64,000 nucleotides of DNA from Campylobacterales bacterium (GCA_027023305.1 JALVVR010000048.1:150907-214906), one strand, 5' to 3'. Shown: positions 4,325 to 63,605, counted from the stretch's first letter. A program made the numbers and translations. The notes: generated from the sequence alone by a model not told the origin.

Positions 4325-4367
4325 TTTTTGAAACATTGTTTAATCTAAAACTATAAATTTATAAAAA

Positions 4368-4397
4368 AAAGTTAAAGTTTTTTTAATCTTTAACTTT
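4368..4397. repeat. 10-bp inverted repeat AAAGTTAAAG-N10-CTTTAACTTT (weak terminator or operator)
   Basis: Seen in the intergenic gap just upstream of a TGnTACAAT -10 element. Confidence 0.45.
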
Positions 4398-4416
4398 AAT
4401 CTGCTACAATTTCCTT

Positions 4417-26592: not shown

Positions 26593-26895
26593 CTATCCTT
26601 TCATCTCTTGAAGTGAATCTAAATCAATAGTTCCATTTCTTTTATACCATAAAACTAAAAGTCCAAGTCCAACTGCAACTTCACTAGCTGCAACTGCTAT
26701 GATAAAAAATGAAAACATTTGACCTGTTAAATCGTGATAATACTTTGATATTGCAGCAAAAGCTATATTTACTGCATTTAGTAAAATCTCAGTTGAAAAA
26801 AACAGTAAAAGAAGATTTTTTCTTCTTATTACACCAATCAAACCTATTACAAACAGTATTGCTGCCAATACCAAATAATGAGTTAATGTTATCAT
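26593..26895 (-). CDS. nuoK: NADH-quinone oxidoreductase subunit K
   Basis: 100 aa, three TM helices, EILLN and AASEVAVGL. Confidence 0.96.
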   Translation of the reverse strand: MITLTHYLVLAAILFVIGLIGVIRRKNLLLLFFSTEILLNAVNIAFAAISKYYHDLTGQMFSFFIIAVAASEVAVGLGLLVLWYKRNGTIDLDSLQEMKG

Positions 26896-27476
26896 TTGTT
26901 ATCCTTTATATCAAACTCTTCAGCTTCTATTTTTTTCTCAGCATTTATATCAAGAGTTATACTTTCATCCATTTTTTTACCAACAAGTATAATACCAGCT
27001 ATCATAGCTACTAGTAACATTACAGCTGCTAATTCAAACTGAGCCAAATACTTTGTAAATAAAACTATACCAACTGCTTGAGGATTGTTTGTTCCAAAAA
27101 GAATATTTTGATTTAGTGGTGCATCAAGATTTAACAAACTCGGTACAAATGGAGCAGAGATTATACAAAGAAGTAAAATACCACTTGCCACCCAAAGGAT
27201 ATTTGTTATAAGTGGTGTATCAATACTCTCTTTAACATCTTTTGTTGTATCAAAAAACATCATTCCAAAAGCATATATCGCCATAACAGCACCTGTATAA
27301 ACTATGATTTGAACTACACCCAAAAAGTCTGCATCAAGCAGAAAGAAAAATCCAGATATAAGTATCATACCAGCTGCCAATGCACTCATCGCATAGAGTG
27401 CATTTTTACTCAATACCACGATAAGAAATAATCCTATCGTTAGAGCCGAAAATAAATAAAATGCTATTGCTTCCAT
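26892..27476 (-). CDS. nuoJ: NADH-quinone oxidoreductase subunit J
   Basis: QIIVYTGAV and FELAAVMLLVAMIAGI; ATG at 27476 has AAGGA 6 nt upstream. Confidence 0.95.
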   Translation of the reverse strand: MEAIAFYLFSALTIGLFLIVVLSKNALYAMSALAAGMILISGFFFLLDADFLGVVQIIVYTGAVMAIYAFGMMFFDTTKDVKESIDTPLITNILWVASGILLLCIISAPFVPSLLNLDAPLNQNILFGTNNPQAVGIVLFTKYLAQFELAAVMLLVAMIAGIILVGKKMDESITLDINAEKKIEAEEFDIKDNK

Positions 27477-27485
27477 ACTCAATCC

Positions 27486-28106
27486 TTAATATGCCAGAGG
27501 CGTTTTTTTGATGTTTTCATCTGCATTTGGACTAACACTACCAAATCCAGCAAATTCTTTTTGCTTACCAGCACGAAATTGATCCATAGGAGTTACAAGC
27601 TCAGCCATAGTTGTAAAGTGTGCTCTTTGCTCACTTACATGCTCATAATCTTGACCATGTGTAATAGCAAGTTCTGGACAAACTTCAGCACAATATCCAC
27701 AATAAATACATCTTCCAAGATTTATCGTATAACTATTAACTACTTTTCTACCCTTAGAACCATACTTTGTACCAATCTCTATACAATTTGCTATACAAAT
27801 CTTTTCACAAAGTCCACAACCTATACATCTTTGATTTCCACTCTCCATCAACCTTTTTATCTGATGCAAAGCTCTATATCTTGGACTAATAGGTAACTTT
27901 TCTAAAGGATATTGTATTGTATGGATATTAAATTTAAGCATTTCACGAAACACTATCCATAATCCTACAAAAAGTTCTCCACTTAGAGTTCTTTTCAGTA
28001 CTTGAGAAAACTTCTCTTTCCAACCAACAGGATTTGAACTTCCCTCAACATACATATAATCAACTGATATATCTCTGTTTTTATAATCTTTAAAATCTAT
28101 CATCAT
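27486..28106 (-). CDS. nuoI: NADH-quinone oxidoreductase subunit I
   Basis: CIGCGLCEKIC and CIYCGYCAEVCP 2x[4Fe-4S] motifs. Confidence 0.97.
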   Translation of the reverse strand: MMIDFKDYKNRDISVDYMYVEGSSNPVGWKEKFSQVLKRTLSGELFVGLWIVFREMLKFNIHTIQYPLEKLPISPRYRALHQIKRLMESGNQRCIGCGLCEKICIANCIEIGTKYGSKGRKVVNSYTINLGRCIYCGYCAEVCPELAITHGQDYEHVSEQRAHFTTMAELVTPMDQFRAGKQKEFAGFGSVSPNADENIKKTPLAY

Positions 28107-28113
28107 CCCTCTC

Positions 28114-29067
28114 CTATATAAGAACTATACCAGTTATAAGTATATTTACAACTGCTAACGGCATAAGCACTTTCCAACATAACCACATCAACTGATCTGG
28201 TCTAACATGAGGCCAAGCTGCTCTAACCCATAAAAATAAAAATATCAAAATAGCAACTTTTATGATGATAGCAAGTCCACCAGGAATAAACCACATATCA
28301 TTATATCCACCAAGAAAAACTAAAGCTGCAACAAAAGCAACTGTAAACATATTTGCATACTCACCTATTGCAAAAAGTCCCCATCTCATACCACTATATT
28401 CAGTAGCATAACCAGTAACAATCTCGGCTTCATGCTCTAGTAAGTCAAACGGTGTTCTGTTTGTCTCTGCATATCCAGCTATCAAGTATAAAACAAAAGC
28501 AACTGGTTGAGCAAAAACTATCCATCCATGAGTTGTTTGATAATTGTTTATATCTATCAAAGACAAACTTCCAACCATCATAAGAGGAGCTATAAGTGAA
28601 AGTCCTGTTACAACTTCAAAAGATAACATTTGAACTACTGTTCTTGCTGCACCCAAAATTGACCACTTATTATCAGATGCCATACCAGCAAGTAGTGGTG
28701 CATACATACCAACTGCCATAACACCAACAACAAATAATATCCCTATATTTACATCTGCAACTATAATACCAGGCAAAAATGGAACTGCACTCATAGCTAT
28801 AAAAGCAGTTGCTGCAGCTATAACAGGTGCTATTCTAAATATAGGTTTTATAGCATTTTGAGGAATTATATCCTCTTTTGTAAAAAGCTTTATACCATCA
28901 GCTGCAACTTGCAAAACTCCATAAGGACCAACATGCATAGGTCCTAGTCTTCTTTGCATAAATGCTAAAACCTTTCTTTCAAAATATGTTGTAATACCAG
29001 CAAGAGCTGAAAATACAGTAAGTATTACAACTACTTTTACCAGTGTCCACAATATGTATGAATCCAT
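28114..29067 (-). CDS. nuoH: NADH-quinone oxidoreductase subunit H
   Basis: ERKVLAFMQRRLGP, ADGIKLFTKED and AETNRTPFDL. Confidence 0.98.
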   Translation of the reverse strand: MDSYILWTLVKVVVILTVFSALAGITTYFERKVLAFMQRRLGPMHVGPYGVLQVAADGIKLFTKEDIIPQNAIKPIFRIAPVIAAATAFIAMSAVPFLPGIIVADVNIGILFVVGVMAVGMYAPLLAGMASDNKWSILGAARTVVQMLSFEVVTGLSLIAPLMMVGSLSLIDINNYQTTHGWIVFAQPVAFVLYLIAGYAETNRTPFDLLEHEAEIVTGYATEYSGMRWGLFAIGEYANMFTVAFVAALVFLGGYNDMWFIPGGLAIIIKVAILIFLFLWVRAAWPHVRPDQLMWLCWKVLMPLAVVNILITGIVLI

Positions 29068-29068
29068 C

Positions 29069-31327
29069 TTATACCCCTTCTACTTTTATTTTAGCAAATC
29101 TATATCCACTTTCAAATATAGCTTTTGTATCAATGTTTTTATCAAAAGTTGGAAGATATCCTATCTCTCCACTAAGTTGCTTATCAACTTTAACTTCAAG
29201 TTCAAGTTCTCCAACTTTTACTCGGCTTCCCTCTTCTAAACCTTTATCACTACTTACATAAAATCCACCATTTGTTTTTAACTGTTTAGCCATATTTGTA
29301 AATGGACTAAACTGATTTATAGGATTTGATAAATAAACAACATCATCTCCAAAATCCTCTACATCATTAGCACTCTCTACATCATCACTAGCTTCACACT
29401 CACTTATACCAAGTAGATAACCTCTATGCTCGACTCCACCATTATCATAATAGTTAGGTAGTTCATCAAAATCTCTAGCTTCATAGCCTTTACTCTCTGG
29501 TAACTCTTTAGTATAAAGTGCTGTGTACTCTTTTTCTACTCCAAGTGCTGATGCTACTTGATTTAATGTATAACCTTTATAACCAACTGCTGCATTTGTA
29601 AGAACAACTCTTTTATCTATGTTTGTAAATGTCCCCTCTTGTTGGTTTAAAGCTGGCATATCAAGATCACCATCACCAAGAGCTGATATTTTTATATCTC
29701 CATCTTCATTATATCCAACTACTTTACTTCCAGCTTCTTCATCTAACTCACAAATATTTGCAACTCCAAGTGTGTTTGTTGAAGTTGGGATAATAGTTAC
29801 TGTTACATCTAAAAGTCTATCGATTAATCCTACTATCTTAGCTAAATTTTCACTTCTTGGATGAGTATAACAATCACTTCCAACTACTAAAGTAAACTTG
29901 TCTTTTTTAGCAAGCATTTTTGTAATCTTAGCTTCAAAATCTTCTGGAAGATTTACTAGTGAACTATCATACTCAACACTTGGAACATCTGTTTCTAAAC
30001 TTTTTCCTAAGAACTCTAAGATAAAAGCTAGAGTATGCTCTTCACTTCCTACCTTGTTTTGTACTGCCATGAAGTTTTTAGCAAATGTAGGAACAACTGT
30101 GTCTCCAACTGGATGAAAGTAAAGTCCAGCACCCTTGTTCATAGTTAAAGCATTATTTACAGCAAATCCAACATTTGGTGCATCTCTTCTTATATCACTT
30201 CCAACTACTACCACAAAGTTTGACTCTTTTATATCTTTTAAACTTCCACTATAAAGACTTTTTCCACTTGTAGAACTATATGCTTCTAAAAACTTTTGAT
30301 AAGCCAATGCATCATTATTTACAAGTTTGTAACCTTTAGCTTCTTTTAGTTTTTGAAGCATTAAAGCCTCTTCATTCGTAATATATGAGTTAAATTTGAT
30401 ACTGTCTGCTTCACTCATAAACTCAAGCACTTTGTTAAATGCAGCTTCATCTTGTCCTGTAACTCTATTTTGAAAGTCATATCCAAATCTAGCAGCCCCA
30501 TTAAGAGTTGCAAAATGATGTTCATTTGTTACTCTTAAAATCTCACCATTTTTCACTTCATAGTTGATTAAAGAACAGTCACTTGAGTGAGGATTTGATG
30601 CTGGAACTTTTACTAGCTCCCAAGCATTTGATTTGTATTGGAAATCTTTACTTATCAAAGCACCAACAGGACAAACACTTATACACTCACCACAATCTTG
30701 GCACTCTAAGCTATCATCTTCATTTACAGTTCCGATTATAGATTTTTGAAGTTTGTTCCACATAGCATAGCTATCTTTTGGCATAGTAGCTTTTAACTCT
30801 TTATCAAGTGGTTCTCCACCTCTAGGAACAGTTTTAAGTACAGAATCACCTATCATATCTTTACAAACAGTTACACACTTTTCACAAACTATACAAAGTC
30901 CTGCATCGTACTTCATAAGTCCCCAATCTTTTATAGGTCTAAAAGTATCTTTTGTAGCATATTTTTGTTCATGTACTCTCATGTAAAGTGTATAGTTTTG
31001 AAGTTCGCACTCTCCACTTTGGTCACAAACACCACATTGAAGAGGATGATTTACATCATATACACTCATGATAGATTCTCTCTCTTGTTCTATCTCTTCA
31101 TTTGAAGTTGTTATAACCATTCCGTCCTTTGCTTTGGCATTACAAGAGTAAACTCTCTTACCATCAGCTTCTACTAGACACAACCTACAAGCTAAAGTTG
31201 GAGAACATCCTGTAAGATAGCAAAGAGCTGGTATAAATATATCATTTCTCCTTGCTATATTTAGGATAAATTCACCCTCAGTAGCTTCGCAAACTTTTCC
31301 GTTTATCTCTACATTGATTTTACTCAT
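29069..31327 (-). CDS. nuoG: NADH-quinone oxidoreductase subunit G (nuoH-proximal copy)
   Basis: 2Fe-2S motif (CY...CRLC...C), HPLQCGVCDQSGEC, CIVCEKCVTVC and CQDCGECISVCPVGAL. Confidence 0.93.
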   Translation of the reverse strand: MSKINVEINGKVCEATEGEFILNIARRNDIFIPALCYLTGCSPTLACRLCLVEADGKRVYSCNAKAKDGMVITTSNEEIEQERESIMSVYDVNHPLQCGVCDQSGECELQNYTLYMRVHEQKYATKDTFRPIKDWGLMKYDAGLCIVCEKCVTVCKDMIGDSVLKTVPRGGEPLDKELKATMPKDSYAMWNKLQKSIIGTVNEDDSLECQDCGECISVCPVGALISKDFQYKSNAWELVKVPASNPHSSDCSLINYEVKNGEILRVTNEHHFATLNGAARFGYDFQNRVTGQDEAAFNKVLEFMSEADSIKFNSYITNEEALMLQKLKEAKGYKLVNNDALAYQKFLEAYSSTSGKSLYSGSLKDIKESNFVVVVGSDIRRDAPNVGFAVNNALTMNKGAGLYFHPVGDTVVPTFAKNFMAVQNKVGSEEHTLAFILEFLGKSLETDVPSVEYDSSLVNLPEDFEAKITKMLAKKDKFTLVVGSDCYTHPRSENLAKIVGLIDRLLDVTVTIIPTSTNTLGVANICELDEEAGSKVVGYNEDGDIKISALGDGDLDMPALNQQEGTFTNIDKRVVLTNAAVGYKGYTLNQVASALGVEKEYTALYTKELPESKGYEARDFDELPNYYDNGGVEHRGYLLGISECEASDDVESANDVEDFGDDVVYLSNPINQFSPFTNMAKQLKTNGGFYVSSDKGLEEGSRVKVGELELEVKVDKQLSGEIGYLPTFDKNIDTKAIFESGYRFAKIKVEGV

Positions 31328-33564
31328 GACTCACCTTGCCCTACTTTTATTTTATTATACCTATAAATTCCCCACAACTTTTGTCCTTCAAAATTCATAT
31401 CAAAGTTTGGTAAAATTCCGATAGTTCCTTTTAAGTTTTCATCTACTCTAAACTCTTTACAAACTTTTAATCCATCTATTTCAAAGTTTATCGTATCTCC
31501 ATCTTTAATCTTAGCTGCAACTGCAAACTGAGCTGAACCAACTACTCTTCCATCTTTTGGAAGGTGTTCACAGATGTTAGAGAAAACATTTTTTTGTGAG
31601 TTAGGATTACAACTATATATAACTACACCATCATAACTATCTATCTCACTAACTTCATCCAGCTTAATCCTTGCAGTGACTTTTTTAGTTTCTAAGTCAT
31701 AACCTCTGATCTCTTCACCTGCATTTGTAAAAACATTTGGTAAGTGATCAAAATCTTCACTTTTGAAGCCTTTATCAGTTGGTAACTCTTTTGTGTAATC
31801 AATAGTGTATTTTTGATTTACTCCTAACTCATTTGCTATATCATTTAGACAAAATCCATCAAATTTTACAGCAGGATTTGTAGGAACTACTTTTTTGTTT
31901 ATGTTTGTAAATGTTCCCTCTTGTTGATTAAGAGCTGGAATATTTACATCTCCACCATCTTCAAGAGCACTTAGAACAAAATCTCCAACTTGATTATATC
32001 CGATAGAGTAACTTCCCTCTTTATCATCAAGATCACATATCAAACTAACACCAAGAGTGTTTACAAGTGGTGGGATTATTATCACATGAAAATCACTATA
32101 TTTTTCAATCAATCCTAAAATCTTAGCTATATTTTTAGCATTTGGATGAGCATAGAGATCATTTCCTACCACAAACGAAAGAGATTTTTTTCTTTTTAAA
32201 TCTTTTGCAAACTTTTCTATCTCTTCTTCACCTACATTACTCTCAGCACTTAGGTATCCATCATCTAACTCTTCTAAAAATTCCTTAGCACCTTTTACCA
32301 ACTTTTTATTTTCACCGATGATAGCTTTTGCCAAAAGAGCTATAACACCTTCTTCACTTCCTACTTCGTATTTGATATGAGTAGATGCTATCCCCTCCAA
32401 TGCTTTATCTTCTATTGGATGACAATAATAATAAGTTGCACGATGCTTTTTAACTGCATCATTTATCCTAAACTTCATGCTAGACATATCATCAGCTATT
32501 TTAGTCCCCAAAGTTACTATAAAATCACTATTTTTAACTTTATCACTAAGTCCATGATACAAAGTATCTCCAGTTATAGAAGAAAATGCCTTTAAAAAGT
32601 TTTGATAATTTTTAGCTTCTGGATTTATCAGTTTATATCCATATTTTTCTTTCAGTTTTTGAAGAATTAAAGCTTCTTCATTTGTAATAAGAGAGGTAAA
32701 CTTGATAGTATCGGCTTTTTTAAAATTTTCTACACATTTTGTCAAATCTTCTTTTGTATTTTCACCTCTGTTTTCATAGTCATAACCATATCTACAAATA
32801 CCACTTATACTATCAAACTCATACTCACTTCTAACTCTGTATATAGTATCTCTTTTTACCTCATAGTAAATCAAACTTGCTAGTGGTGAGTGGATACATG
32901 AAGCTGGAATTCTTTTTTGCTCCCAAGCATTTGTTTTATAGTTAAAATCTTTATCACTCAAAGCTCCAACAGGACAAACAGCTGCACATTCTCCCCAATC
33001 TACATTTTTATCATCAGGTTTTGTGTTTATAATAGTTGAGTTATAACCACCAGCTTTTACTTTTAAAGCACCATCCCCTACTATTTCGTTTGAAACTCTT
33101 ACACATCTCTCACAAAGTATGCAAAGATATGGATCATAAGTGATATTTCCCCAGTCTTGAACTTCTCTTTTTTGCTCTTTTGCACTAAAGTTTTGGCTGA
33201 CTACTCCCATCTCCATAGTTTTACCTTGAAGATCACACTCTCCACTTTTTGGACAAGCTCCACACTGCAAAGGGTGATTTACATCATACATTTTCAAGAT
33301 ATTTTGTCTTTGTTTGTAAAGTTCATCACTATTTGTAGTAACTTTTATACCCTCGAGAGCTTTTTCTTGACATGAAAGGATATTTCCTTCCATACCTTCA
33401 ACCTCTACAATACAAACTCTACAACTTGAAATAGGCTTTACTTTTGAAAGGTAGCACATAGTTGGGATGTACATACCATTTCTTCTAGCAGCTTGAAGTA
33501 TGCTATCACCCTTGTGGGCAACTACCTCTTTTCCATCTATATTAAGTTTTATTGTTTCACTCAT
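31324..33564 (-). CDS. nuoG: Second, divergent NuoG-like subunit
   Basis: CY...CRVC...C, HPLQCGACPKSGEC, CILCERC...CPVGAL; shares PALNQQEGTFTNI with its neighbour. Confidence 0.88.
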   Translation of the reverse strand: MSETIKLNIDGKEVVAHKGDSILQAARRNGMYIPTMCYLSKVKPISSCRVCIVEVEGMEGNILSCQEKALEGIKVTTNSDELYKQRQNILKMYDVNHPLQCGACPKSGECDLQGKTMEMGVVSQNFSAKEQKREVQDWGNITYDPYLCILCERCVRVSNEIVGDGALKVKAGGYNSTIINTKPDDKNVDWGECAAVCPVGALSDKDFNYKTNAWEQKRIPASCIHSPLASLIYYEVKRDTIYRVRSEYEFDSISGICRYGYDYENRGENTKEDLTKCVENFKKADTIKFTSLITNEEALILQKLKEKYGYKLINPEAKNYQNFLKAFSSITGDTLYHGLSDKVKNSDFIVTLGTKIADDMSSMKFRINDAVKKHRATYYYCHPIEDKALEGIASTHIKYEVGSEEGVIALLAKAIIGENKKLVKGAKEFLEELDDGYLSAESNVGEEEIEKFAKDLKRKKSLSFVVGNDLYAHPNAKNIAKILGLIEKYSDFHVIIIPPLVNTLGVSLICDLDDKEGSYSIGYNQVGDFVLSALEDGGDVNIPALNQQEGTFTNINKKVVPTNPAVKFDGFCLNDIANELGVNQKYTIDYTKELPTDKGFKSEDFDHLPNVFTNAGEEIRGYDLETKKVTARIKLDEVSEIDSYDGVVIYSCNPNSQKNVFSNICEHLPKDGRVVGSAQFAVAAKIKDGDTINFEIDGLKVCKEFRVDENLKGTIGILPNFDMNFEGQKLWGIYRYNKIKVGQGES

Positions 33565-33565
33565 A

Positions 33566-35566
33566 CTACACCGCCACCATTGCTATATAATAACATCTCA
33601 TACATCTACTAGCTTCATCAACTGCTTGCTCATTTGTAAATCCAAAGTTTACCTCTTCTTGTGTAAACTTTCTACTCTCAGCTGGAAGTTTTTCGCTTAC
33701 CTCTCTTGGAAGTCCTTTTATCCATCCCGTTACTTCTTCTTTTTTGTTATAAACTTTTAGTTTTGATAAGTGATCTTCCATGATTTCTTCATCAGTTAAA
33801 GTAAGCTTATCACTATGCACATATCTACTCATGACAGAAGCTGCTCTTTTTGCTTGACCAACTGCATTTACGATAGTCATAGGACCATATTCACAGTCTC
33901 CTGCAGCAAAGATACCTTTTCTACTTGTTTGATAAGTTTTACCATCAGTTTTCAAAGTTCTCCAACTTGTCATTTCTAATTCCCATTCTTCAGGAAGATA
34001 GCTCAAATCTGCATCTTGACTAACTGCAGGGATAAGATAATCACACTCTATCTCAAAATCAGCACCCTCTATTTTAACAAGTTGAGCTCTTCCCCCATCA
34101 GGATCAGGAACTAACTCAAATCTGTTTACTTTTAACTTTGTAAGTTTATCATTTTCATCAAATATCTCTTCAATAGCAGAGTGAAATATAAACTCAACAC
34201 CCTCTTCTACTGCTTCATGATACTCTTCCCATGAAGTATTTCTTACAATTGTTTTTTCATCTCTACGATAAAGCATGATGACTTTTTTGGCCCCTGCTCT
34301 TATAGAACATCTAACAACATCCATAGAAGTAAATCCACCACCAACACAAACAACTGTTTTTCCACTCAAATCAACTGGTTCACAAAGATTCCATTTTACA
34401 GATAGGTTTATATCATCCAAAAACTGTATAGCTGGCCAATATCCTTCTATCTCTGGTCTTTCATTTGTTGCTCTTACTTTTTTACTTATTCTAGTTCCAC
34501 TAGCAAGTAATACTGCATCATAACTCTCTTCAAACTCTCTGAGCATATCAGCCGTAACTTTAGTATTTAGTATAAATTCTACTCCATCCAATGCTCCAAC
34601 AGCTTCTATATCTTTACTATAAGCATCATAAGGCATCCTATACTCTGGAACTCCAACTGCAACCTCTCCACCTAAAACTGGTAACTCATCATAAACATCA
34701 CAAGCAACACCATCAAGAGCCAAATAATAAGCTCCTGCAAGTCCAGCAGGTCCTGCTCCAACAATCGCTACTTTTTTACCATTCAAAGGTTTTTGAGGAT
34801 ATGGATAGTTAAAATCAAGTCCATGATCACTCTCATAATCAGCACCTATTCTCTTAAGTTCCATGATAGACACTGCTTCATCCAAATTTGCTCTTCTACA
34901 AGCATCTTCACAAGGATGAGGACAAACCCTACCACAAGTATGAGCTAGAGGCATTGTTTGTTTTGTAGCTTTTAAACTATCTATAAACTGTAAATCTCTA
35001 ACACCCTCTATATAAGCTGGTATATCAACATGATCTGGACATGCATCTGAACAAGGAGCTGTTATTTTTGCTATATAGTTTATATCTTCGTTACTATAAT
35101 CTTTTGAAGCTTTTTTAGTCTTTATAAGTTCATCTACATCATCTTTGAAGTAATTTAAAATATCTAAAAGAGGTTTTGGAACTGTTCTTCCTATCTCACA
35201 CTTTGAAGTTTTCATCATAGTATCACTTATCTCTTTTAAGTGTTCTACATCATCAGTTGTTCCAGCACCTCTTGCTATCTTGTCGAAAAGATCATAAAGT
35301 ATTCTACCACCCCATCTTCCAGGAGCACATCTTCCACAAGCTTCACTATATTCTTGATATTGAGCTGCATACATAGTACCTGCTTTTATGACATCAACAT
35401 CTTCACTAAAAACAACTAATCCATCCCATCCGATGAAAATCTTACTGTTTTTATTTCCATCATAAGTAGAAGGTACTTTAAAAGCACTCTCACTCCACTC
35501 CTCTACTGGCTTACCACGGTTATCTATAAACTCGTCTTGCCAAGTGGAGAAAAGGACTTTACTCAA
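33566..35566 (-). CDS. GltD/SfrB/NfnL-like FAD- and NAD(P)H-binding Fe-S oxidoreductase with N-terminal NuoF-type Fe-S domain, at the nuoF position
   Basis: SEACGRCAPG...KCEIG; PCSDACP, CGRVCPHPCEDAC, VAIVGAGPAGL, VGGGFTSMD, YRR, IFAAGD and EASRCMRC. Confidence 0.9.
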   Translation of the reverse strand: MSKVLFSTWQDEFIDNRGKPVEEWSESAFKVPSTYDGNKNSKIFIGWDGLVVFSEDVDVIKAGTMYAAQYQEYSEACGRCAPGRWGGRILYDLFDKIARGAGTTDDVEHLKEISDTMMKTSKCEIGRTVPKPLLDILNYFKDDVDELIKTKKASKDYSNEDINYIAKITAPCSDACPDHVDIPAYIEGVRDLQFIDSLKATKQTMPLAHTCGRVCPHPCEDACRRANLDEAVSIMELKRIGADYESDHGLDFNYPYPQKPLNGKKVAIVGAGPAGLAGAYYLALDGVACDVYDELPVLGGEVAVGVPEYRMPYDAYSKDIEAVGALDGVEFILNTKVTADMLREFEESYDAVLLASGTRISKKVRATNERPEIEGYWPAIQFLDDINLSVKWNLCEPVDLSGKTVVCVGGGFTSMDVVRCSIRAGAKKVIMLYRRDEKTIVRNTSWEEYHEAVEEGVEFIFHSAIEEIFDENDKLTKLKVNRFELVPDPDGGRAQLVKIEGADFEIECDYLIPAVSQDADLSYLPEEWELEMTSWRTLKTDGKTYQTSRKGIFAAGDCEYGPMTIVNAVGQAKRAASVMSRYVHSDKLTLTDEEIMEDHLSKLKVYNKKEEVTGWIKGLPREVSEKLPAESRKFTQEEVNFGFTNEQAVDEASRCMRCYYIAMVAV

Positions 35567-35799
35567 GATGCTTTCCTTTTAACAACAAGACTCCAATCAA
35601 CCTCGTTGAATTTCAAAGAGTTTCTTACTTCATGACCGGCTTCACTCATAATATCAAAGCTCTTTTGTATAGGAGAAAAGTCACCTATCTCAAACAAAAA
35701 TATACAAACTTCATTTGGTTTTATATCTTTTTCCATAATCTCTAACATTCTGTTATAAAGTTTCTCTTCTTTATGTTTTCTTAAATCATATCTTTGCAT
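35563..35799 (-). CDS. Epsilonproteobacterial NuoE-replacement small subunit (NuoX-like)
   Basis: MQRYDLR...LFEIGDFS...NSLKFNEVDW; directly downstream of nuoD; no Fe-S motif. Confidence 0.85.
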   Translation of the reverse strand: MQRYDLRKHKEEKLYNRMLEIMEKDIKPNEVCIFLFEIGDFSPIQKSFDIMSEAGHEVRNSLKFNEVDWSLVVKRKAS

Positions 35800-35808
35800 A
35801 TTTTTTCC

Positions 35809-37041
35809 TTATCTATCGATCTCGCCAAATACGATATTTAAGTTACCTATAATAGTAACAACATCAGCTATATAAGTTCCTACTAGCATCTCTTGTAAAA
35901 CACTTGTATGCCAAAAACTAGGAGCTCTTAGTTTTATTCTATGTGGATACGGCTCACCTTGAGAATTTATATAGAATCCAAGTTCACCTTTTGGAGACTC
36001 AGTTGCCACATAAACTTCACCTACTGGTGGTCTCATGCCTTGTGTAACAAGTACAAAGTGCTGCATCAAAGCAAAGTTATCAGTCATTAATGACTCTTTT
36101 GGTGCTGAAATATACTCAGGAACTTTAGCCATAAGCTGAGGCTGAGTTTTTTTATACATTGGAATTAATTGCTCTATAATCTTGATAGATTGTCTCATCT
36201 CTTGCATATAAAGCTTATACCTTCCGTAACTATCATTTGTATCACTAACAGGTACTTGAAACTCCAACTCATCATAAAGTTCATAAGGCTCTTCTTTTCT
36301 TATATCCCAAGCAACTCCACTACCTCTAAGAGTTGCACCAGTGCATCCCCAACTAATAGCATTTTCTGCACTCAACACACCAACATGCTCTAGTCTCATT
36401 TTCCAAATTCTATTTTGGTCTAGTAAACCTTCATAATCTTCTATATCCTTAGGAAATCTTGTTATAAATGCCCTAAGTTTTTCTATCCATCCAGGAGCTA
36501 AGTCTAGTGGAACTCCACCAATTCTAACTGCACTATGAGTAAGTCTTGCACCACAATAATCCTCCATCAAGTCCATAGCAAATTCTCTTTCTCTAAAACA
36601 ATAAAGGAATATACTCATTGCTCCTACATCAAGTGCATGAGTTGCTAACCAAAAAAGGTGTGAGATTATTCTGTTTAACTCTAAAAGCATAGTTCTTATA
36701 ACTTTTGCTCTTCTTGGAACTTTTTCTTCTATCCCTAAAAGTCTCTCAACTGCTAGGGCATATCCATAGTTGTTTGAAGTAGCTGCTATATAATCCATCC
36801 TATCTGTTGTAGGTAAAAACTCATTATATATCATGTTCTCAGCCATCTTCTCCATACCACGATGAAGATAACCAACATCAGGAGTAGCTTTTACAACCTG
36901 TTCACCATCAAGTTCAAGTATAAGTCTAAGCTGACCATGAGCTGAAGGGTGTTGAGGTCCGAAGTTTACTATCATAGTATTATCTTCTCTCTCAAAAGCC
37001 AAGTTTTCATAAAAAGGTTTTAATCTATTTCTTGTTTGCAT
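35809..37041 (-). CDS. nuoD: NADH-quinone oxidoreductase subunit D
   Basis: [24 protein letters not shown] and GEIDR. Confidence 0.98.
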
Positions 37042-37043: not shown

Positions 37044-37847
37044 CTACTTCCTATCTGATAATATTTTTTGATTTTTCTTACTAAACTTAGTAATAAGTGG
37101 TACTCCACCCTCTTCTTGGAACTCTTCAAAGTTTGCATCAACTTCTTTTGGATTAGCTCCTCTTGCAACTTCTTTACCTATTCTTGCAAAATGCTCAGTA
37201 TCTTTTGGATCTATTCTTTTAGTATCTCTTATTTCTGGTCCAACTACTTCTCTATGCTCTTTTCCAAAGATAGTATCTATCTCGTACCATTGAGCATCTT
37301 CATCACCTTGAAGTGGATAAGATTTTCTAAGTGGATGACCAGTCCAATCATCAGGCATAAGAATTCTTTTTAAGTTAGGATGTCCATTTGATACTATTCC
37401 TAGCATATCATACATCTCTCTTTCAGCCCAATCAGCACTTTTATATATATCATATAAACTATCTATTGCTTGATTTTCTTTGATAGAGTATTTTACTCTT
37501 AATCTTTTTCTTTTATCCATAGATAAAAATTGATAAAAAACTTCCAACTCTCCACTCTTAGCTAAAAAGTCATTTGCACTCATCTCACTTAACTGAGTAT
37601 AAGTCAATTTCTCTTTTAAAAGTTTAGCAACAGTTACTATATCATGTCTGTTTTCAAGTATGATAACTAACTGACCTTTTTGTATATAAGCTTCTTTTAC
37701 CTTAGCTTTTTTACTAATAACTGCTAAATCTTTACTAAATACCTCATCACTCTCTACTTCCTCTTTTGGAACTTGAGGAGCAACAAAAAATCTATCTTTA
37801 TAGTAAACCTTTGCTTGTGCATTACTTTTATCTTGATAAGTTCTCAT
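37044..37847 (-). CDS. nuoC: NADH-quinone oxidoreductase subunit C
   Basis: [14 protein letters not shown] and [23 protein letters not shown]. Confidence 0.97.
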
Positions 37848-38356
37848 TACACCAACCTCTTAGTTTTTGCTTTTTGAAAAGCTGATTGTTTTCTTATTTT
37901 CTTTTGTAGCATCATGACTGCATATTGCAAAGTCTCAGGTCTAGGTGCACATCCAGGGAGATATATATCAACCGGTATTATCCTATCAACACCTTGAACA
38001 GTTGCATAAGTATTAAACATTCCACCTGTATTTGCACAACTTCCCATGCTGATAACCCATTTTGGCTCTGTCATCTGATCATATAATCTTCTGATAAATT
38101 GAGCATGTTTTTTTGTTAGGGTTCCAGCAACTACCATAACATCTGCTTGTCTAGGACTAGCTCTAAAAATAGTACCAAATCTATCAAAGTCATAACGACT
38201 TGCTCCCGAAGCCATCATCTCGATAGCACAACAAGCTAAACCATAAGTCAAAGCCCACAAAGAGTTACTTCTACCCCACTGAACAAGTTTATCAACCGTA
38301 GTTAGAGCTACTGGTAGCCCACTATCTGCCATATAATTTACTTTATGCTGTGCCAT
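37847..38356 (-). CDS. nuoB: NADH-quinone oxidoreductase subunit B
   Basis: [19 protein letters not shown] and PGCAPRPE; probable start MAQHK overlapping the nuoA end. Confidence 0.98.
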
Positions 38357-38727
38357 TCTAATGCTCCTTTTTTCCATGCATATACAAAACCAATTGTTAA
38401 CAATACTATAAATATAACCATCTCAGCAAAACCAAACATACCAAGAACTTTAAAATCAATAGCCCATGGAAACATAAATATAATCTCTACATCAAACAAT
38501 ATAAATAAAAGTGCAAACAGATAAAACTGTGCTGACATAGTATTTGGCTGTTTAGAAACCTCAGGTCCACACTCATAAACACTAAGCTTCAACTTCTCAT
38601 TGTCAAGTCTTGCTAACTTTCTACTTACAAATCTTGAGATATTTGTAGTAGCAGTAAAAGCTATAAATGTCAAAACAAAAAAGACAAATGCCCCAAAATA
38701 TGGATGATTAACTACTGTATGTTCCAT
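38338..38727 (-). CDS. nuoA: NADH-quinone oxidoreductase subunit A
   Basis: [19 protein letters not shown] and WKKGALEW. Confidence 0.97.
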
Positions 38728-38868: not shown

Positions 38869-40599
38869 TTAAAACTCAAATCCCATCTTCTTCTCCTCTC
38901 CGAAAGTACCTTTTATCTCTCTTTGTATCTCTTCTAAAAAGTCCTTGTTTTCAAAGGTTGGTTCATCTTTTATAGCCACTTTTATAGCTGTATTTTTAAC
39001 TACAACACTTATCTGTCCTCCACTAAGATTTGCTTTTGCTAACTCTTCTATATTTACTGTTTTACTATCAAGTGCTACTTTTGGTAACATTTTAGCCCAT
39101 AGCTTTACTCGCTGTTCAAGGTTTGGTTTTGAGAACTCTATCTTATAATCAAACCGTCTTGAAAATGCACTATCCAAAGTCTCTAAAAGGTTTGTAGTTG
39201 CTATCAAAATCCCACTAAACTTCTCTATCTGCTCTAAAAAGATATTTTGCATCTGATTATGCATCTTATCACTTCCACTTCCTCCAGTCGTTCTACTACT
39301 TAAAAACTGATCAGCTTCATTTAAAAGTAGTACTGGATGAGACTTACTCTTTTTTGTAAGGTCATTGTATGTGTCAAAAATCTTTCTTACATTTTTCTCA
39401 CTCTCTCCCACATACATAGAAAGAATCTTTGAACAATCAAAACTTAAAACCTTTCTTTTCAAATTTTTTGCCAAGGAGTATGCAGTCATAGTCTTTCCAG
39501 TCCCTGGAGGTCCATAAAAAAGTAACTTGGCATCTACATTTGAGTTTGTTTTTATACCCCACTCTTTAAGCCTTTTTGCTACTTTTTTATCTACTTGTTT
39601 AAGAACTCCTTTTAAAAGCTCATCAGTTTTTGGATGAAGCACTACATCTTTTAAAGTAGTCTTGGGTGTAACAAGCTCAAATATCTCTTGCTCTTTTATA
39701 AGTGTATCGATTGTTATCTTCTCACTCTTTTTAAGCTTATTTGGATGCATGATAGTTTGTAAAATTTCCTCTTCGATAAAAAAGCTTCTACTAACCCCAC
39801 CAAAAGCTGTAAGCATCTCATCATAATCGATAATCTCTTTTTCTATCAAAGTAGATCCCTCTTCTAAAAGACTTCTGTTTTTTATCTTGTCATAGTCATT
39901 TTCACTTATCAAGTTTATAAGATTATTCATCTCTCTTAAAGAATCTATCTCACTAGAATACTCCTCTTTTAAAAGTACCAAAAATATAATCTGCTCTTTT
40001 TGCTTTAACTCATACTTTGAAAATAGCTCCTCAACAGTAAGCTTGTTTTTTGTACTTGTAACTCTTTCATTGATTCTAGTTTCAAGTAGTTTAAGCCTAT
40101 TTTTTAGTCTATCAATACTAAGTGAGTTATCAGGATAGTTTTCTCTTATATTAGCTATCTTTTGGTAAATCTCTATACGAGAAAACTGGTCTCTTAGATA
40201 CTCCAAGTGGTCACTGTAAGCAGTAGATTCAGGAAGCTCAACCTCTAAAGTCCCCTCCTCTAAAAGCTTTTGAAAACTTGGACTTAAAGTAACAGAAGAG
40301 TTTATAAGCTCTAAAGTAGATACATCTATACTCTTTGATTCAAAAAGACTACTGATACTAAGCCAACCAAGATGTAAAAGATTTTTCACCATAGGAAGCT
40401 TCTGCACATAGTTATACTCTCCATTATCTGGATAAATCTCATTTAAAACCATATATACTAAACTCTCACTAGAGCCCTCGATATGCTTTTTTACTATATT
40501 TTGCAAAATCTCAGCTTCATCTTTTGAACATTTTAGATGAGAGTAAATTTTTGCTTTTGTTATATCTTTTACTTTTATAAAGTCTATTAGGTATTCCAA
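38869..40599 (-). CDS. AAA+ family ATPase
   Basis: GPPGTGKT, SMYVGESEKN, LLLNEAD and LDSAFSRRF; likely TTG start at 40599 after AAGGA. Confidence 0.9.
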   Translation of the reverse strand: MEYLIDFIKVKDITKAKIYSHLKCSKDEAEILQNIVKKHIEGSSESLVYMVLNEIYPDNGEYNYVQKLPMVKNLLHLGWLSISSLFESKSIDVSTLELINSSVTLSPSFQKLLEEGTLEVELPESTAYSDHLEYLRDQFSRIEIYQKIANIRENYPDNSLSIDRLKNRLKLLETRINERVTSTKNKLTVEELFSKYELKQKEQIIFLVLLKEEYSSEIDSLREMNNLINLISENDYDKIKNRSLLEEGSTLIEKEIIDYDEMLTAFGGVSRSFFIEEEILQTIMHPNKLKKSEKITIDTLIKEQEIFELVTPKTTLKDVVLHPKTDELLKGVLKQVDKKVAKRLKEWGIKTNSNVDAKLLFYGPPGTGKTMTAYSLAKNLKRKVLSFDCSKILSMYVGESEKNVRKIFDTYNDLTKKSKSHPVLLLNEADQFLSSRTTGGSGSDKMHNQMQNIFLEQIEKFSGILIATTNLLETLDSAFSRRFDYKIEFSKPNLEQRVKLWAKMLPKVALDSKTVNIEELAKANLSGGQISVVVKNTAIKVAIKDEPTFENKDFLEEIQREIKGTFGEEKKMGFEF

Positions 40600-40751
40600 A
40601 TTTATTTCCTTGACTAAAAATATCTTCAATGACAGCTTCATCTGTTCATTGCTAGATATTATTACATTAGTTTTCATATTTCAAAGAATTATTATATGAT
40701 TATTAACTTATTGGGAGTAAAATCGGACAATTTTTATATCAAAGGATAATC

Positions 40752-62869: not shown

Positions 62870-62877
62870 GAGCAATT

Positions 62878-63602: not shown

Positions 63603-63605
63603 AAA

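What the first reader, a model, noticed from the sequence alone, without database searches (positions are those of the whole stretch)
29069..35799. Complex I input module rebuilt from a NuoX-like subunit, an NfnL/GltD-like flavoprotein and two NuoG paralogues
Seen: between nuoD and nuoH lie a 78-aa cofactor-less NuoE substitute, a 666-aa flavoprotein and two full-length divergent nuoG genes, all tightly coupled. The flavoprotein joins a NuoF-type Fe-S domain (CGRCAPG, third Cys replaced by Gly) to a GltD-like core whose second Rossmann fold is followed by YRR, suggesting NADP(H). Established: Campylobacter/Helicobacter complex I lacks NuoEF and takes electrons from flavodoxin, and GltD-like folds form SfrB and the bifurcating Nfn large subunit. 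Inference: this complex may have alternative or simultaneous NADPH and flavodoxin/ferredoxin inputs, possibly for reverse electron transport or bifurcation. Similar operons probably exist in other free-living Campylobacterota, so the gene order may not be new; I know of no biochemical characterisation.
Basis: partly seen in the sequence, partly recalled or inferred. Interest (0 to 1): 0.7.

Follow-up and report, generated by a model that had tools for sequence, protein, structure and literature searches.

The report
Campylobacterial complex I with NADPH module
This is the unusual respiratory complex I operon of sulfur-oxidising Campylobacterota, already described from the genome of Sulfurimonas, in which an NADPH-type flavoprotein and a second NuoG stand where the NADH-binding subunits normally are; it probably supplies NADPH and reduced ferredoxin for carbon fixation, but nobody has tested it biochemically.

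Summary
On the minus strand lie nuoA-B-C-D, a 78-aa NuoX, a 666-aa flavoprotein, two full-length nuoG paralogues (41% identical) and nuoH-N, tightly coupled. The motifs CGRCAPG and YRR are present and invariant in 64 of 64 family members.

It is not new. A 2019 preprint (10.1101/717884) describes the same genes in Sulfurimonas denitrificans (Suden_1822-1824) and proposes the same idea: reverse electron flow to NADP+ and ferredoxin. The flavoprotein orthologue is in 93 of 401 sampled Campylobacterota genomes.

What I add:
- The flavoprotein's GltD module is circularly permuted like StnC/NfnABC. In StnC that flavin does not bifurcate.
- Both NuoGs keep full Fe-S ligand sets, and NuoGb has one extra [4Fe-4S].
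- "NuoY" of the short-form operons, which from the sources I read are the Campylobacter/Helicobacter type, is a truncated NuoGa. The flavoprotein is absent wherever the Fe-S half of NuoGa is absent.
- NuoX's H. pylori homologue is reported to bind FMN.
- This genome shows ATP-citrate lyase and two 2-oxoacid:ferredoxin oxidoreductases, but no NuoF, flavodoxin, PntB or Rnf.

The function remains inferred.

The parts
38338..38727 (-). nuoA
   Evidence: PF00507, E 3.1e-32
37847..38377 (-). nuoB
   Evidence: PF01058, E 7.5e-29
37044..37847 (-). nuoC
   Evidence: PF00329, E 4.5e-40
35809..37041 (-). nuoD
   Evidence: PF00346, E 2.5e-106
35563..35799 (-). nuoX (78 aa). TusA-like small subunit, homologue of H. 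pylori HP1264.
   Evidence: PF16514, E 1.3e-34. Matches 2lxr_A at E 1.2e-22 over residues 1-77. FMN binding is reported for HP1264 (PMC6269979 passages).
33566..35566 (-). Flavoprotein (666 aa, TTG start overlapping the nuoX stop). It joins a NuoF C-terminal-type domain to a circularly permuted GltD/NfnB-type FAD-NADP(H) module.
35117..35485 (-). Flavoprotein residues 28-150: NuoF C-terminal-like domain with an invariant 3-Cys site (C77, C80, G83, C123).
   Evidence: PF10589. TIGR01959 NuoF positions 292-408 of 410. Invariance in 64 of 64 members.
33797..35065 (-). Flavoprotein residues 168-590: GltD-like core. It holds six of the eight Cys for two [4Fe-4S] clusters (C172, C176, C211, C215, C219, C223), the FAD Rossmann fold (GAGPAG at 270-275), the NADP(H) Rossmann fold (GGGFTSMD at 409-416) and Y433-R434-R435.
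33590..33709 (-). Flavoprotein residues 620-659: a segment that is N-terminal in NfnB/GltD and sits at the C-terminus here. It carries the invariant C655 and C658, which complete the first cluster motif.
   Evidence: Aligns to 4ylf_B residues 10-43 (E 0.0022), 5vj7_A and 5jca_L 2-45, 6s6s_G 14-51, and 9bov_A 528-567. Invariance.
31324..33564 (-). nuoGa (746 aa): first NuoG paralogue, with ligands for N1b, N5 and N4. Its middle and C-terminal part is the counterpart of NuoY in the short-form operons.
29069..31327 (-). nuoGb (752 aa): second NuoG paralogue, with ligands for N1b and N5 and an 8-Cys 2x[4Fe-4S] domain. It is the orthologue of the only full-length NuoG of short-form operons.
28114..29067 (-). 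nuoH
   Evidence: PF00146, E 2.5e-109
27486..28106 (-). nuoI
   Evidence: Fer4 families
26892..27482 (-). nuoJ
   Evidence: PF00499
26593..26895 (-). nuoK
   Evidence: PF00420
24704..26590 (-). nuoL
   Evidence: PF00361 and PF00662
23163..24692 (-). nuoM
   Evidence: PF00361
21676..23166 (-). nuoN
   Evidence: PF00361

Best explanation
This operon encodes the 'long form' of the campylobacterial NuoX-type complex I. The eleven core subunits (NuoA-D, H-N) are ordinary.

Proposed architecture (inferred, not shown).
- NuoGb sits in the usual NuoG position. It carries N1b, N5, N4 and one extra [4Fe-4S].
- A second arm consists of NuoX, NuoGa and the flavoprotein. NuoGa's C-terminal half, the part that survives as NuoY in the short-form operons, anchors this arm together with NuoX.
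- NuoGa's N-terminal Fe-S chain is contacted by the flavoprotein's NuoF-like domain, as NuoF contacts NuoG in canonical complex I.
- The flavoprotein exchanges a hydride with NADP(H) at FAD and passes single electrons through its two [4Fe-4S] clusters into this chain.
- A low-potential one-electron carrier docks at the site that short-form complexes use for flavodoxin. In this genome that carrier is most likely ferredoxin.

Proposed function (inferred). In this organism, which has genes consistent with a reverse TCA cycle, the enzyme mainly runs backwards. Proton-motive force drives electrons from menaquinol up to NADP+ and to ferredoxin.

Shown: gene content, cofactor-ligand conservation, synteny, phylogeny, and absence of the flavoprotein together with absence of NuoGa's Fe-S half. 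Inferred: physical assembly, which NuoG contacts which partner, direction, stoichiometry.
For: 1. Integration in the operon. The flavoprotein lies between nuoD/nuoX and nuoG/nuoH with 4-nt overlaps or 1-nt gaps. Among the related loci, 57 of 57 with at least 1.6 kb upstream have nuoD and nuoX upstream. 42 of 44 with at least 5.2 kb downstream have two full-length nuoG genes.

2. A NuoF-type docking domain. Residues 28-146 match NuoF positions 292-408 of 410 and the C-terminal parts of HydB, HoxF and NuoF chains in the PDB.

3. A complete NADP(H)/FAD/2x[4Fe-4S] module. Eight Cys (172, 176, 211, 215, 219, 223, 655, 658), both Rossmann motifs, Y433-R434-R435 and R310 are invariant in 64 of 64 or 41 of 41 members. 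The preprint states that Tyr310 and Arg311-312 of T. maritima NfnB bind the NADP(H) phosphate and are conserved in Suden_1824.

4. Both NuoGs can act as wires. The N1b, N5 and N4 ligands are invariant in 56 NuoGa and 47 NuoGb sequences. NuoGb has 8 invariant Cys in its ferredoxin-like domain.

5. Absence together. In 26 of 26 operons examined that have NuoX but no flavoprotein, there is only one full-length NuoG, of NuoGb type. The gene after nuoX is a 215-351-aa protein lacking NuoG's Fe-S half. 25 of these 26 give NuoGa as their best BLASTP match. In the tree, the branch separating {18 NuoGa + 6 NuoY} from {17 NuoGb + 6 single NuoG} has support 100/99. hhalign of NuoY against NuoGa gives probability 100, E 1.9e-63, against E 2.8e-23 for NuoGb.

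6. A natural NuoX-NuoY fusion. One genome has both in a single 351-aa ORF (L089), which argues that NuoX touches the NuoGa C-terminal domain.

7. Physiological need. The 99.97% complete assembly has the ATP-citrate lyase citrate-binding domain and two 2-oxoacid:ferredoxin oxidoreductases. A fumarate reductase-like pair lies in the window. No NuoF FMN domain, flavodoxin, PntB or Rnf was found. Its only other GltD-like gene is genuine gltD next to gltB.

8. Published support. The preprint reaches the same functional proposal from growth-yield modelling. It reports that both NuoG copies are transcribed at similar levels in S. denitrificans.
Against: - No biochemical, proteomic or structural data on any long-form complex turned up in my searches.
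- The NuoF-like domain has only three Cys. The third position is invariably Gly, so the presence or type of a cluster there is unknown. Without one, the path from the GltD clusters to NuoGa might be broken.
- One locus (L034) has nuoX-flavoprotein-nuoGa followed by unrelated genes on the other strand instead of nuoGb-nuoH. The three proteins might therefore work apart from the membrane complex.
- Which NuoG sits on NuoI/NuoCD is inferred from orthology only.
- The direction of electron flow cannot be read from sequence. A forward NADPH:menaquinone reaction fits the same anatomy.
- The absence together of the flavoprotein and NuoGa's Fe-S half is counted over related genomes, which are not independent events. 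The AU test does not reject a single origin of NuoY (p 0.163).
Confidence: 0.55

Rival explanations
1. Forward-only NADPH dehydrogenase. The complex is a respiratory NADPH:menaquinone oxidoreductase in which the GltD-like flavoprotein simply replaces NuoEF as the hydride-accepting module. Ferredoxin plays no part.
For: The flavoprotein has everything needed to oxidise NADPH. Its closest solved relative, StnC, passes electrons from NADPH linearly down an Fe-S chain (PMC10482914). The genome has no other NuoF-type module.
Against: NuoX and the NuoGa C-terminal domain are kept in the short-form operons. From the papers I read, C. jejuni complex I is of this type and uses flavodoxin, not NAD(P)H. 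So the long form inherits a second, non-pyridine-nucleotide site. Genes consistent with a reverse TCA cycle imply a need for NADPH and reduced ferredoxin, and no alternative producer was found.
Confidence: 0.15
2. Flavin-based bifurcation or confurcation on complex I. The FAD of the flavoprotein splits the electron pair of NADPH between a high-potential path (NuoG chain to menaquinone) and a low-potential path (its own two [4Fe-4S] clusters to ferredoxin). In reverse, it combines electrons, as the preprint proposes.
For: The module is homologous to bifurcating NfnB (4ylf_B E 3.4e-67; Foldseek E 1.3e-27, TM 0.73 normalised to the target). The Arg that protects FAD N5 in NfnB is conserved as invariant R310. 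Two separate NuoG chains could provide two exits. The hypothesis is stated.
Against: The module shares its permuted topology and best scores with StnC/NfnABC-type proteins. In StnC the FAD was shown not to bifurcate although the same Arg is present (PMC10482914). Sequence therefore cannot support bifurcation. The Bfu-type bifurcating partner, a NuoF-like FMN domain, is absent from the genome.
Confidence: 0.15
3. Soluble side enzyme. NuoX, the flavoprotein and NuoGa form a cytoplasmic SfrAB-like NADPH:ferredoxin oxidoreductase. It is co-transcribed with complex I but not bound to it.
For: L034 carries nuoX-flavoprotein-nuoGa with no nuoGb/nuoH after it. Pairs of a GltD-like protein with a NuoG/FdhA-like protein exist as soluble enzymes: SfrAB as named in PMC7483475, and StnC as a fusion. 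The same domain architecture occurs in clusters from other phyla.
Against: 42 of 44 loci keep the genes inside the nuo operon with translational coupling. In the short-form operons the NuoGa remnant (NuoY) and NuoX are kept in the operon (26 of 26). L034 is a metagenome-assembled contig cut just upstream of nuoX, so a misassembly or a second copy cannot be excluded.
Confidence: 0.1

Closest known systems
Sulfurimonas denitrificans non-canonical complex I (Suden_1822/1823 NuoG copies, Suden_1824 NfnB-like 'NuoF'), described in bioRxiv 10.1101/717884
   Same: Same gene set and order. Same NfnB-like flavoprotein with the Tyr-Arg-Arg NADP(H) signature. Two NuoG copies, one with a roughly 30-residue insert between Cys motifs. 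Same functional proposal. Metagenome-assembled genomes (MAGs) labelled Sulfurimonas carry 69-72% identical flavoproteins in the same order.
   Different: This is a different lineage: the window's family has only 3 of the 401 sampled genomes. The two NuoGs here are nearly equal in length (746 and 752 aa) and both lack N7. I did not fetch the Suden proteins themselves.
Campylobacter jejuni / Helicobacter pylori complex I with NuoX (Cj1575c/HP1264) and NuoY (Cj1574c/HP1265)
   Same: NuoEF are absent and NuoX follows nuoD. The only full-length NuoG of the short-form operons is a NuoGb orthologue with the same 8-Cys domain. Their NuoY is homologous to NuoGa residues about 340-500 and 624-745.
   Different: The short form lacks the flavoprotein and the whole Fe-S half of NuoGa (26 of 26 loci). 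It is reported to use flavodoxin, which was not found in this genome. The genomes I examined are unnamed. That they include Campylobacter and Helicobacter rests on the NuoX match to HP1264 and on the papers.
StnABC (Sporomusa ovata, 8oh5) and Bfu-type NfnABC (9bov, 9n5u)
   Same: Best sequence and fold matches of the flavoprotein (E 2.6e-82 to 7.7e-69; Foldseek E about 1e-30). Same permuted order, with the 'EAxRCxxC' segment after the FAD/NADPH domains. The GltD module works together with a NuoG-like Fe-S chain.
   Different: In Stn/Nfn the GltD module is inserted inside a NuoG-like polypeptide and serves a soluble NuoEF-like FMN bifurcating module. Here it is fused to a NuoF C-terminal domain, NuoG is a separate gene, no FMN domain exists in the genome, and the partner is a membrane complex.
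NfnB/NfnL of NfnAB (Thermotoga maritima 4ylf_B, Pyrococcus furiosus 5jca_L)
   Same: GltD fold, FAD, NADPH site and two [4Fe-4S] clusters.
   Different: NfnB has the canonical, non-permuted order and no NuoF-like domain, and it pairs with NfnA. No NfnB-like gene other than gltD was found in this genome.
SfrAB, NADPH-dependent oxidoreductase of Geobacter sulfurreducens
   Same: A GltD-like beta subunit paired with a NuoG/FdhA-like alpha subunit that has no catalytic molybdopterin. This is as summarised in PMC7483475 and otherwise recalled.
   Different: SfrAB is soluble and not in a nuo operon. I made no sequence comparison with SfrAB here.
NUO-2 of Nitrospina gracilis / Kuenenia stuttgartiensis
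   Same: A complex I variant with a modified NuoF lacking the FMN site, extra Fe-S clusters in NuoF/NuoG, and a proposed role in quinol-to-ferredoxin reverse electron transport (PMC3578206).
   Different: NuoF2 there keeps the NADH-binding domain and gains ferredoxin-like clusters. It has no GltD module, no NuoX and no duplicated NuoG in tandem.

Membership tests
NuoX-type (campylobacterial) complex I | Eleven core subunits NuoA-D and NuoH-N in one operon | tested here: met
   Pfam families for all eleven
NuoX-type (campylobacterial) complex I | NuoE/NuoF absent; a PF16514 protein directly after nuoD | tested here: met
   PF16514 E 1.3e-34. No PF01512 in the 99.97% complete genome.
NuoX-type (campylobacterial) complex I | Flavodoxin or ferredoxin, not NADH, as redox partner | not testable with these tools
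   Known for C. jejuni only from papers
Long form as in Sulfurimonas denitrificans (Suden_1822-1824) | NfnB/GltD-like flavoprotein with the Tyr-Arg-Arg NADP(H) signature in the place of NuoF | tested here: met
   description
Long form as in Sulfurimonas denitrificans (Suden_1822-1824) | Two tandem full-length nuoG genes | tested here: met
Long form as in Sulfurimonas denitrificans (Suden_1822-1824) | Direct orthology to the Suden proteins | tested here: inconclusive
   The named proteins were not fetched. MAGs labelled Sulfurimonas share 69-72% identity and the same order.
NuoF | FMN/NADH-binding domain (PF01512) | tested here: not met
   Not in the protein and not in the genome
NuoF | C-terminal N3 cluster domain with four Cys | tested here: not met
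   The domain is present (PF10589). The third Cys is Gly83, invariant in 64 of 64.
NfnB / NfnL (NfnAB large subunit) | GltD fold with FAD, NADPH site and eight ligands for two [4Fe-4S] clusters | tested here: met
NfnB / NfnL (NfnAB large subunit) | Canonical order, with the Fe-S segment 'EAxRCxxC' at the N-terminus | tested here: not met
   That segment is at residues 620-659. Pfam Fer4_20 matches only profile positions 29-111 here, whereas the genome's own GltD matches 1-111.
NfnB / NfnL (NfnAB large subunit) | Bifurcating FAD | not testable with these tools
   The relevant Arg (R310) is conserved but is also conserved in non-bifurcating StnC
StnC / Bfu-type NfnA | Permuted GltD module | tested here: met
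StnC / Bfu-type NfnA | GltD module inserted in one polypeptide with NuoG-like domains | tested here: not met
   The protein is 666 aa, begins with a NuoF-like domain and ends after the permuted segment. NuoG is a separate gene.
StnC / Bfu-type NfnA | Partner NuoE/NuoF-like FMN bifurcating module | tested here: not met
   No PF01512 in the genome
NuoG (both paralogues) | Ligands of N1b (4 Cys), N5 (His + 3 Cys) and N4 (4 Cys) | tested here: met
   Invariant in 56 NuoGa and 47 NuoGb sequences
NuoG (both paralogues) | Score above NCBIfam NF006305 cut-off | tested here: met
   825.3 and 1032.7 bits, cut-off 591
NuoG (both paralogues) | N7 cluster motif CxxCxxxC...C | tested here: not met
   Absent in both window proteins. 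Present in 36 of 52 NuoGa and 17 of 38 NuoGb orthologues that have the anchor motif.

The most novel reading that the evidence does not exclude
The four-gene input module (NuoX, flavoprotein, NuoGa, NuoGb) is the older state of campylobacterial complex I. The NuoX-NuoY-NuoG form of Campylobacter and Helicobacter is a reduced derivative: NuoY, usually labelled a NuoF substitute, is the C-terminal stump of NuoGa. The site for the low-potential carrier (ferredoxin or flavodoxin) would then lie on NuoX plus the NuoGa C-terminal domain in both forms. The long form would be one machine that uses proton-motive force to make both reduced ferredoxin and NADPH from menaquinol. That would be the missing reductant source of Campylobacterota that use the reverse TCA cycle.
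Probability: 0.3. Interest if true: 0.75.

Novelty: already known. Interest (0 to 1): 0.4.

Why it matters
How sulfur- and hydrogen-oxidising Campylobacterota obtain reduced ferredoxin and NADPH for the reverse TCA cycle is still unsettled. These organisms dominate dark carbon fixation at vents and in sulfidic waters. This operon is the leading published candidate.

The window adds no new kind of system. The comparisons made here do sharpen the experiment in four ways.
- NuoGa plus the flavoprotein emerge as one separable arm.
- NuoX and the NuoGa C-terminal domain are the parts shared with the short-form enzyme, which is reported to use flavodoxin.
- Bifurcation at the FAD is less likely, because the module is of the non-bifurcating StnC type.
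- If the NuoY-NuoGa relationship is not already in print, it re-labels a subunit of the Campylobacter/Helicobacter enzyme that databases call 'NuoF'.

Tried and rejected
1. Complex prediction. I set up the flavoprotein N-domain as partner with the N-terminal halves of NuoGa and NuoGb, from alignments A1-A3. The tool's queue was full, the resend came too early, and the tool was then declared unavailable. Nothing was folded, so which NuoG the flavoprotein binds stays open.

2. RNA evidence. No RNA holder was listed for window:29069-35799.

3. Idea that NuoY equals the NuoF-like N-domain of the flavoprotein: rejected. Searching residues 1-165 in 10 genomes gave one orthologous flavoprotein (G300) and three weak matches in 407-425-aa ORFs, probably true NuoF-like proteins. 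NuoY instead matches NuoGa.

4. The 'shorter' protein search with residues 1-165 returned 80 proteins. As far as I can judge they are pieces of the same fusion cut at contig ends, with no separate small family.

5. Idea that the extra invariant Cys41 of NuoGb supplies the missing fourth ligand of the flavoprotein's 3-Cys site: dropped. The Cys is also present at that column in 4 of 6 single NuoGs from genomes without the flavoprotein, and one position away in the other 2.

6. Number of NuoGa-to-NuoY truncations: unresolved. NuoY falls in 4 places in the best tree, but starred branches force only 1. The AU test does not reject monophyly (p 0.163).

7. My first N7 count was wrong because the regular expression caught the ferredoxin-type motif. 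I redid it with an anchor.

8. Weerakoon & Olson 2008 is not held. Their statements are known to me only through citing papers. The supplements of the bioRxiv preprint (Figs S5, S6) could not be seen.

10. Literature searches found no biochemical or structural study of the long form and no statement that NuoY derives from NuoG. One search was swamped by personal names and only 25 of its 405 papers were listed. One search failed on a malformed term. These searches cover open-access papers only.

11. One search used a wrong reading frame and was not repeated, because the residue in question cannot separate bifurcating from non-bifurcating enzymes.


Full report
**1. What is there**

The window carries one complete nuo operon on the minus strand, from 38727 down to 21676. 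Pfam assigns nuoA, B, C, D, H, I, J, K, L, M and N without ambiguity.

Four genes lie between nuoD and nuoH.
- A 78-aa PF16514 protein (NuoX, 35563-35799).
- A 666-aa flavoprotein (33566-35566), whose TTG start overlaps the nuoX stop by 4 nt.
- NuoGa (31324-33564, 746 aa).
- NuoGb (29069-31327, 752 aa).

Both NuoG proteins pass the NCBIfam model of campylobacterial NuoG: NF006305 gives 825 and 1033 bits against a cut-off of 591. They are 41% identical end to end.

**2. The flavoprotein**

- Residues 28-146 match the last 120 positions of NuoF (TIGR01959 positions 292-408 of 410). They also match the C-terminal parts of HydB, HoxF and NuoF chains in the PDB (E 2e-16 and weaker). The FMN/NADH domain of NuoF (PF01512) is absent from the protein and from the whole genome.
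- In an alignment of the window protein with 63 full-length orthologues from fetched loci, C77, C80, G83 and C123 are invariant. The loss of the third N3 cysteine is therefore a fixed feature of the family and not decay.
- Residues 168-590 are a GltD/NfnB-type module. C172, C176, C211, C215, C219, C223, both Rossmann motifs, Y433-R434-R435 and R310 are invariant.
- The last 45 residues carry a further invariant pair, C655 and C658. Searched alone, the C-terminal 77 residues align with the N-termini of canonical relatives: 4ylf_B residues 10-43 (E 0.0022), 5vj7_A and 5jca_L 2-45, and 6s6s_G 14-51. They align with residues 528-567 of 9bov_A, which lie after that protein's flavin domains. Each E-value is weak, but all alignments place the same 'EAxRCxxC' segment.
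- The genome's own gltD gives an internal control. It lies next to gltB and matches Pfam Fer4_20 positions 1-111 at its N-terminus. The flavoprotein matches only positions 29-111.
- The module is therefore circularly permuted relative to NfnB/GltD, in the same way as the StnC/NfnABC type. With the C-terminal pair it has eight Cys for two [4Fe-4S] clusters.

The best sequence matches in the PDB are 9bov_A (E 2.6e-82), 9n5u_A (2.5e-72) and 8oh5_C (7.7e-69), ahead of T. maritima NfnB 4ylf_B (3.4e-67). An AlphaFold model built from 41 sequences has mean pLDDT 74.2, lowest around the cluster-binding loops. Foldseek ranks the same three entries first. Their titles name C. saccharolyticus Nfn-ABC, T. 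sibiricus NfnABC and S. ovata StnABC.

**3. The two NuoGs**

- In 56 NuoGa sequences the ligands of N1b (C37, C48, C51, C65), N5 (H97, C101, C104, C110) and N4 (C148, C151, C154, C197) are invariant.
- In 47 NuoGb sequences N1b and N5 are likewise invariant. The ferredoxin-like domain has eight invariant Cys (145, 148, 151, 155, 209, 212, 215, 219), which is N4 plus one extra [4Fe-4S].
- The N7 motif is missing from both window proteins. It is present in 36 of 52 NuoGa and 17 of 38 NuoGb orthologues that have the anchor motif.
- Both paralogues thus look like working electron wires.

**4. Distribution**

A scan of one genome per species found 201 stretches encoding a relative of the flavoprotein. 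The best 80 gave 68 loci. All but one come from MAGs labelled as Campylobacterota groups, including Sulfurimonas, Sulfurovum, Nitratifractor, Nitratiruptor, Hydrogenimonas, Sulfurospirillum, Arcobacteraceae and Helicobacteraceae. The exception, L054, is labelled Chloroflexota.

- 57 of 57 loci with at least 1.6 kb upstream have nuoD and nuoX upstream.
- 42 of 44 loci with at least 5.2 kb downstream have two full-length nuoG genes.
- The two exceptions are L076, where nuoGb is split into two ORFs, and L034. In L034, nuoX-flavoprotein-nuoGa is followed by unrelated genes on the other strand.

In an even sample of 401 genomes of the phylum, NuoX is present in 337. A full-length flavoprotein orthologue is present in 93. 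I counted these from the match table, where scores drop sharply from E 8.8e-178 to 8.0e-59.
- Families f1, f6, f8, f9, f10, f12, f13 and f14: every sampled genome has it.
- f4: 19 of 20. f7: 3 of 23. f2: 15 of 118.
- f3 (0 of 158), f5 (0 of 7) and f11 (0 of 19): none.

**5. NuoY is a truncated NuoGa**

- All have a single full-length NuoG whose best match is NuoGb.
- All have a 215-351-aa gene between nuoX and nuoG.
- The 6 such proteins I scanned have no convincing Pfam family: three have none, and three show only single chance-level hits with E above 0.007.
- All six hit only the NuoG model NF006305, below threshold, at model positions about 350-570 and 747-798.
- 25 of the 26 give window NuoGa as their best BLASTP match, to its middle and C-terminal parts.
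- The 26th (L088) falls below threshold but keeps the motif LSAES..GEEE.

Pairwise, an Arcobacteraceae-type NuoY aligns to NuoGa residues 343-499 (37% identity, E 2e-31) and 624-745 (34%, E 1e-12). It aligns more weakly to NuoGb (29%, E 3e-22). Profile against profile, 26 NuoY sequences versus 41 NuoGa give probability 100, E 1.9e-63 and 34% identity over 272 columns. Against NuoGb they give E 2.8e-23 and 23% identity.

I built a maximum-likelihood tree on the 250 shared columns. It used a chosen subset: 18 of 56 NuoGa, 17 of 47 NuoGb, 6 NuoY and 6 single NuoG. The split NuoGb of L076 was left out. The branch separating {all NuoGa + all NuoY} from {all NuoGb + all single NuoG} has support 100/99. 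How often the truncation happened is unresolved (p-AU 0.163 for one NuoY clade).

One genome encodes NuoX and NuoY as one 351-aa ORF (L089).

Databases label H. pylori HP1265 as 'chain F'. I found no open paper stating the NuoG relationship. The two most likely sources, Weerakoon & Olson 2008 and Smith et al. 2000, are not held.

**6. What this implies for the mechanism**

- Wherever the flavoprotein is missing, the Fe-S half of NuoGa is missing too. NuoX, the NuoGa C-terminal domain and NuoGb stay. This suggests that the flavoprotein feeds or drains the Fe-S chain of NuoGa.
- NuoX plus the NuoGa C-terminal domain would then form the part shared with the short-form enzyme, which is reported to use flavodoxin.
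- NuoGb would be the canonical subunit on NuoI/NuoCD.
- NuoX matches H. pylori HP1264 (2lxr_A, E 1.2e-22). A review describes HP1264 as TusA-like and FMN-binding in vitro.

**7. Genome context**

The assembly is 99.97% complete.
- Present: an ATP-citrate lyase citrate-binding domain, two 2-oxoacid:ferredoxin oxidoreductases, and a fumarate reductase-like flavoprotein/Fe-S pair at 44657-46851 in the window.
- Not found: NuoF FMN domain, flavodoxin, PntB and Rnf.

An organism with this gene content needs a source of both NADPH and reduced ferredoxin, and this operon is the obvious candidate.

**8. Comparison with the literature**

McNichol & Sievert (bioRxiv 10.1101/717884; passages read, supplements closed) describe the following.
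- Suden_1824 is an NfnB-like substitute for NuoF with the Tyr-Arg-Arg NADP(H) residues and cluster cysteines.
- Suden_1822 and Suden_1823 are two NuoG copies, 36% identical, both transcribed.
- The arrangement is conserved in Sulfurimonas and Sulfurovum.
- They credit Weerakoon & Olson 2008 with noting the two NuoG copies.

Kumar et al. 2023 (PMC10482914, passages) showed that the FAD of StnC does not bifurcate, although the NfnB arginine is conserved. The window protein is of the StnC-like permuted type and lacks any NuoF-like FMN partner. Sequence therefore gives no support for bifurcation, though it cannot exclude it.

The same domain architecture (PF10589 + PF14691 + PF07992, about 610-750 aa) appears in Atlas clusters from Pseudomonadota, Bacillota, Deferribacterota, Thermodesulfobacteriota and Actinomycetota. 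The flavoprotein type itself is therefore not confined to this phylum.

**9. Verdict**

- Novelty of the feature: already known.
- The added points are the permuted StnC-type module, the invariant 3-Cys site, the ligand audit of both NuoGs, NuoY as a NuoGa remnant, the NuoX-NuoY fusion, and the absence of the flavoprotein together with the Fe-S half of NuoGa. They refine the model and point to specific experiments.
- The complex prediction that could have tested the proposed contacts was not available.

Noticed in passing
L073-L075, L077, L081, L083, L085-L104 (short-form nuo operons of unnamed Campylobacterota genomes): The gene after nuoX ('NuoY', 215-351 aa; no convincing Pfam family in the 6 scanned) is homologous to the middle and C-terminal parts of NuoGa. 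It groups with NuoGa, not NuoGb, in a tree (support 100/99). In the reading offered here it is a truncated NuoG paralogue, not a NuoF substitute.
   Followed up: yes
L089:212-1267 (+): NuoX and NuoY are encoded as one continuous 351-aa ORF in one genome (G313). This natural fusion suggests that the two proteins touch.
   Followed up: partly
L047:5303-6001, L050, L056:5246-6001, L061, L062, L067: In loci of MAGs labelled Sulfurovum, NuoX is 232-253 aa. It has the usual 74-residue PF16514 domain plus a C-terminal extension of about 160-175 aa. The two that were scanned show no Pfam family in the extension.
   Followed up: partly
L078:2885-5773 and L079:6812-9595 (family f2, genus g48): A variant flavoprotein of 927-962 aa carries an insertion of about 270 aa between the NuoF-like domain and the GltD Fe-S domain. 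Its NuoGa and NuoGb are also enlarged (813-1046 aa).
   Followed up: no
L034:359-4898 and downstream: nuoX-flavoprotein-nuoGa is followed not by nuoGb/nuoH but by queD-like, NAD(P)H-hydrate repair and murF-like genes on the other strand. This could be a stand-alone three-gene module or a misassembly.
   Followed up: partly
L076:6681-9051: In a complete 2.11-Mb genome (G216) nuoGb is split into two overlapping ORFs (309 and 537 aa). This could be a frameshift or a pseudogene.
   Followed up: no
window 31324-33564 (NuoGa residues about 430-450) and the NuoY alignment A4: An acidic motif, LD.GY(L/I)SAES..GEEE, is conserved in NuoGa and NuoY (D434 and E448 of NuoGa are invariant; E120, E125, E126 and E127 of the first NuoY are invariant). 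It is absent from NuoGb. It is a candidate contact surface of unknown partner.
   Followed up: no
window 33566-35566 (flavoprotein C407, C420, C558): Three further Cys in the Rossmann domains are invariant or nearly so in this family. They are not Cys at the aligned positions of 9bov_A. Their role is unknown.
   Followed up: no
window 44657-46851 (-): A fumarate reductase/succinate dehydrogenase-like pair (FAD_binding_2 protein of 495 aa and Fe-S protein of 236 aa) lies 4 kb from the nuo operon.
   Followed up: no
window 12285-16015 (+): An N6 DNA methylase-domain protein (709 aa) is followed by a 533-aa protein with no Pfam family. The stretch has markedly low G+C (0.23-0.24 against about 0.33 elsewhere). 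It may be a foreign restriction-modification or defence island.
   Followed up: no
window 62184-63932 (+): Five consecutive small ORFs (107-122 aa) have no Pfam family at E up to 1e-6.
   Followed up: no
window 3722-5187 (+): A 200-aa ORF matches only the first half of Pyr_redox_2. It is followed by a 256-aa ORF with no family. This may be a split or decayed flavoprotein gene.
   Followed up: no
window 38869-40677 (-): A 602-aa AAA+ ATPase with a winged-helix domain lies directly upstream of nuoA on the same strand.
   Followed up: no
L054: One locus with the campylobacterial nuoD-nuoX-flavoprotein order (70% identity) comes from a MAG labelled Chloroflexota. This is probably a binning error.
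   Followed up: no
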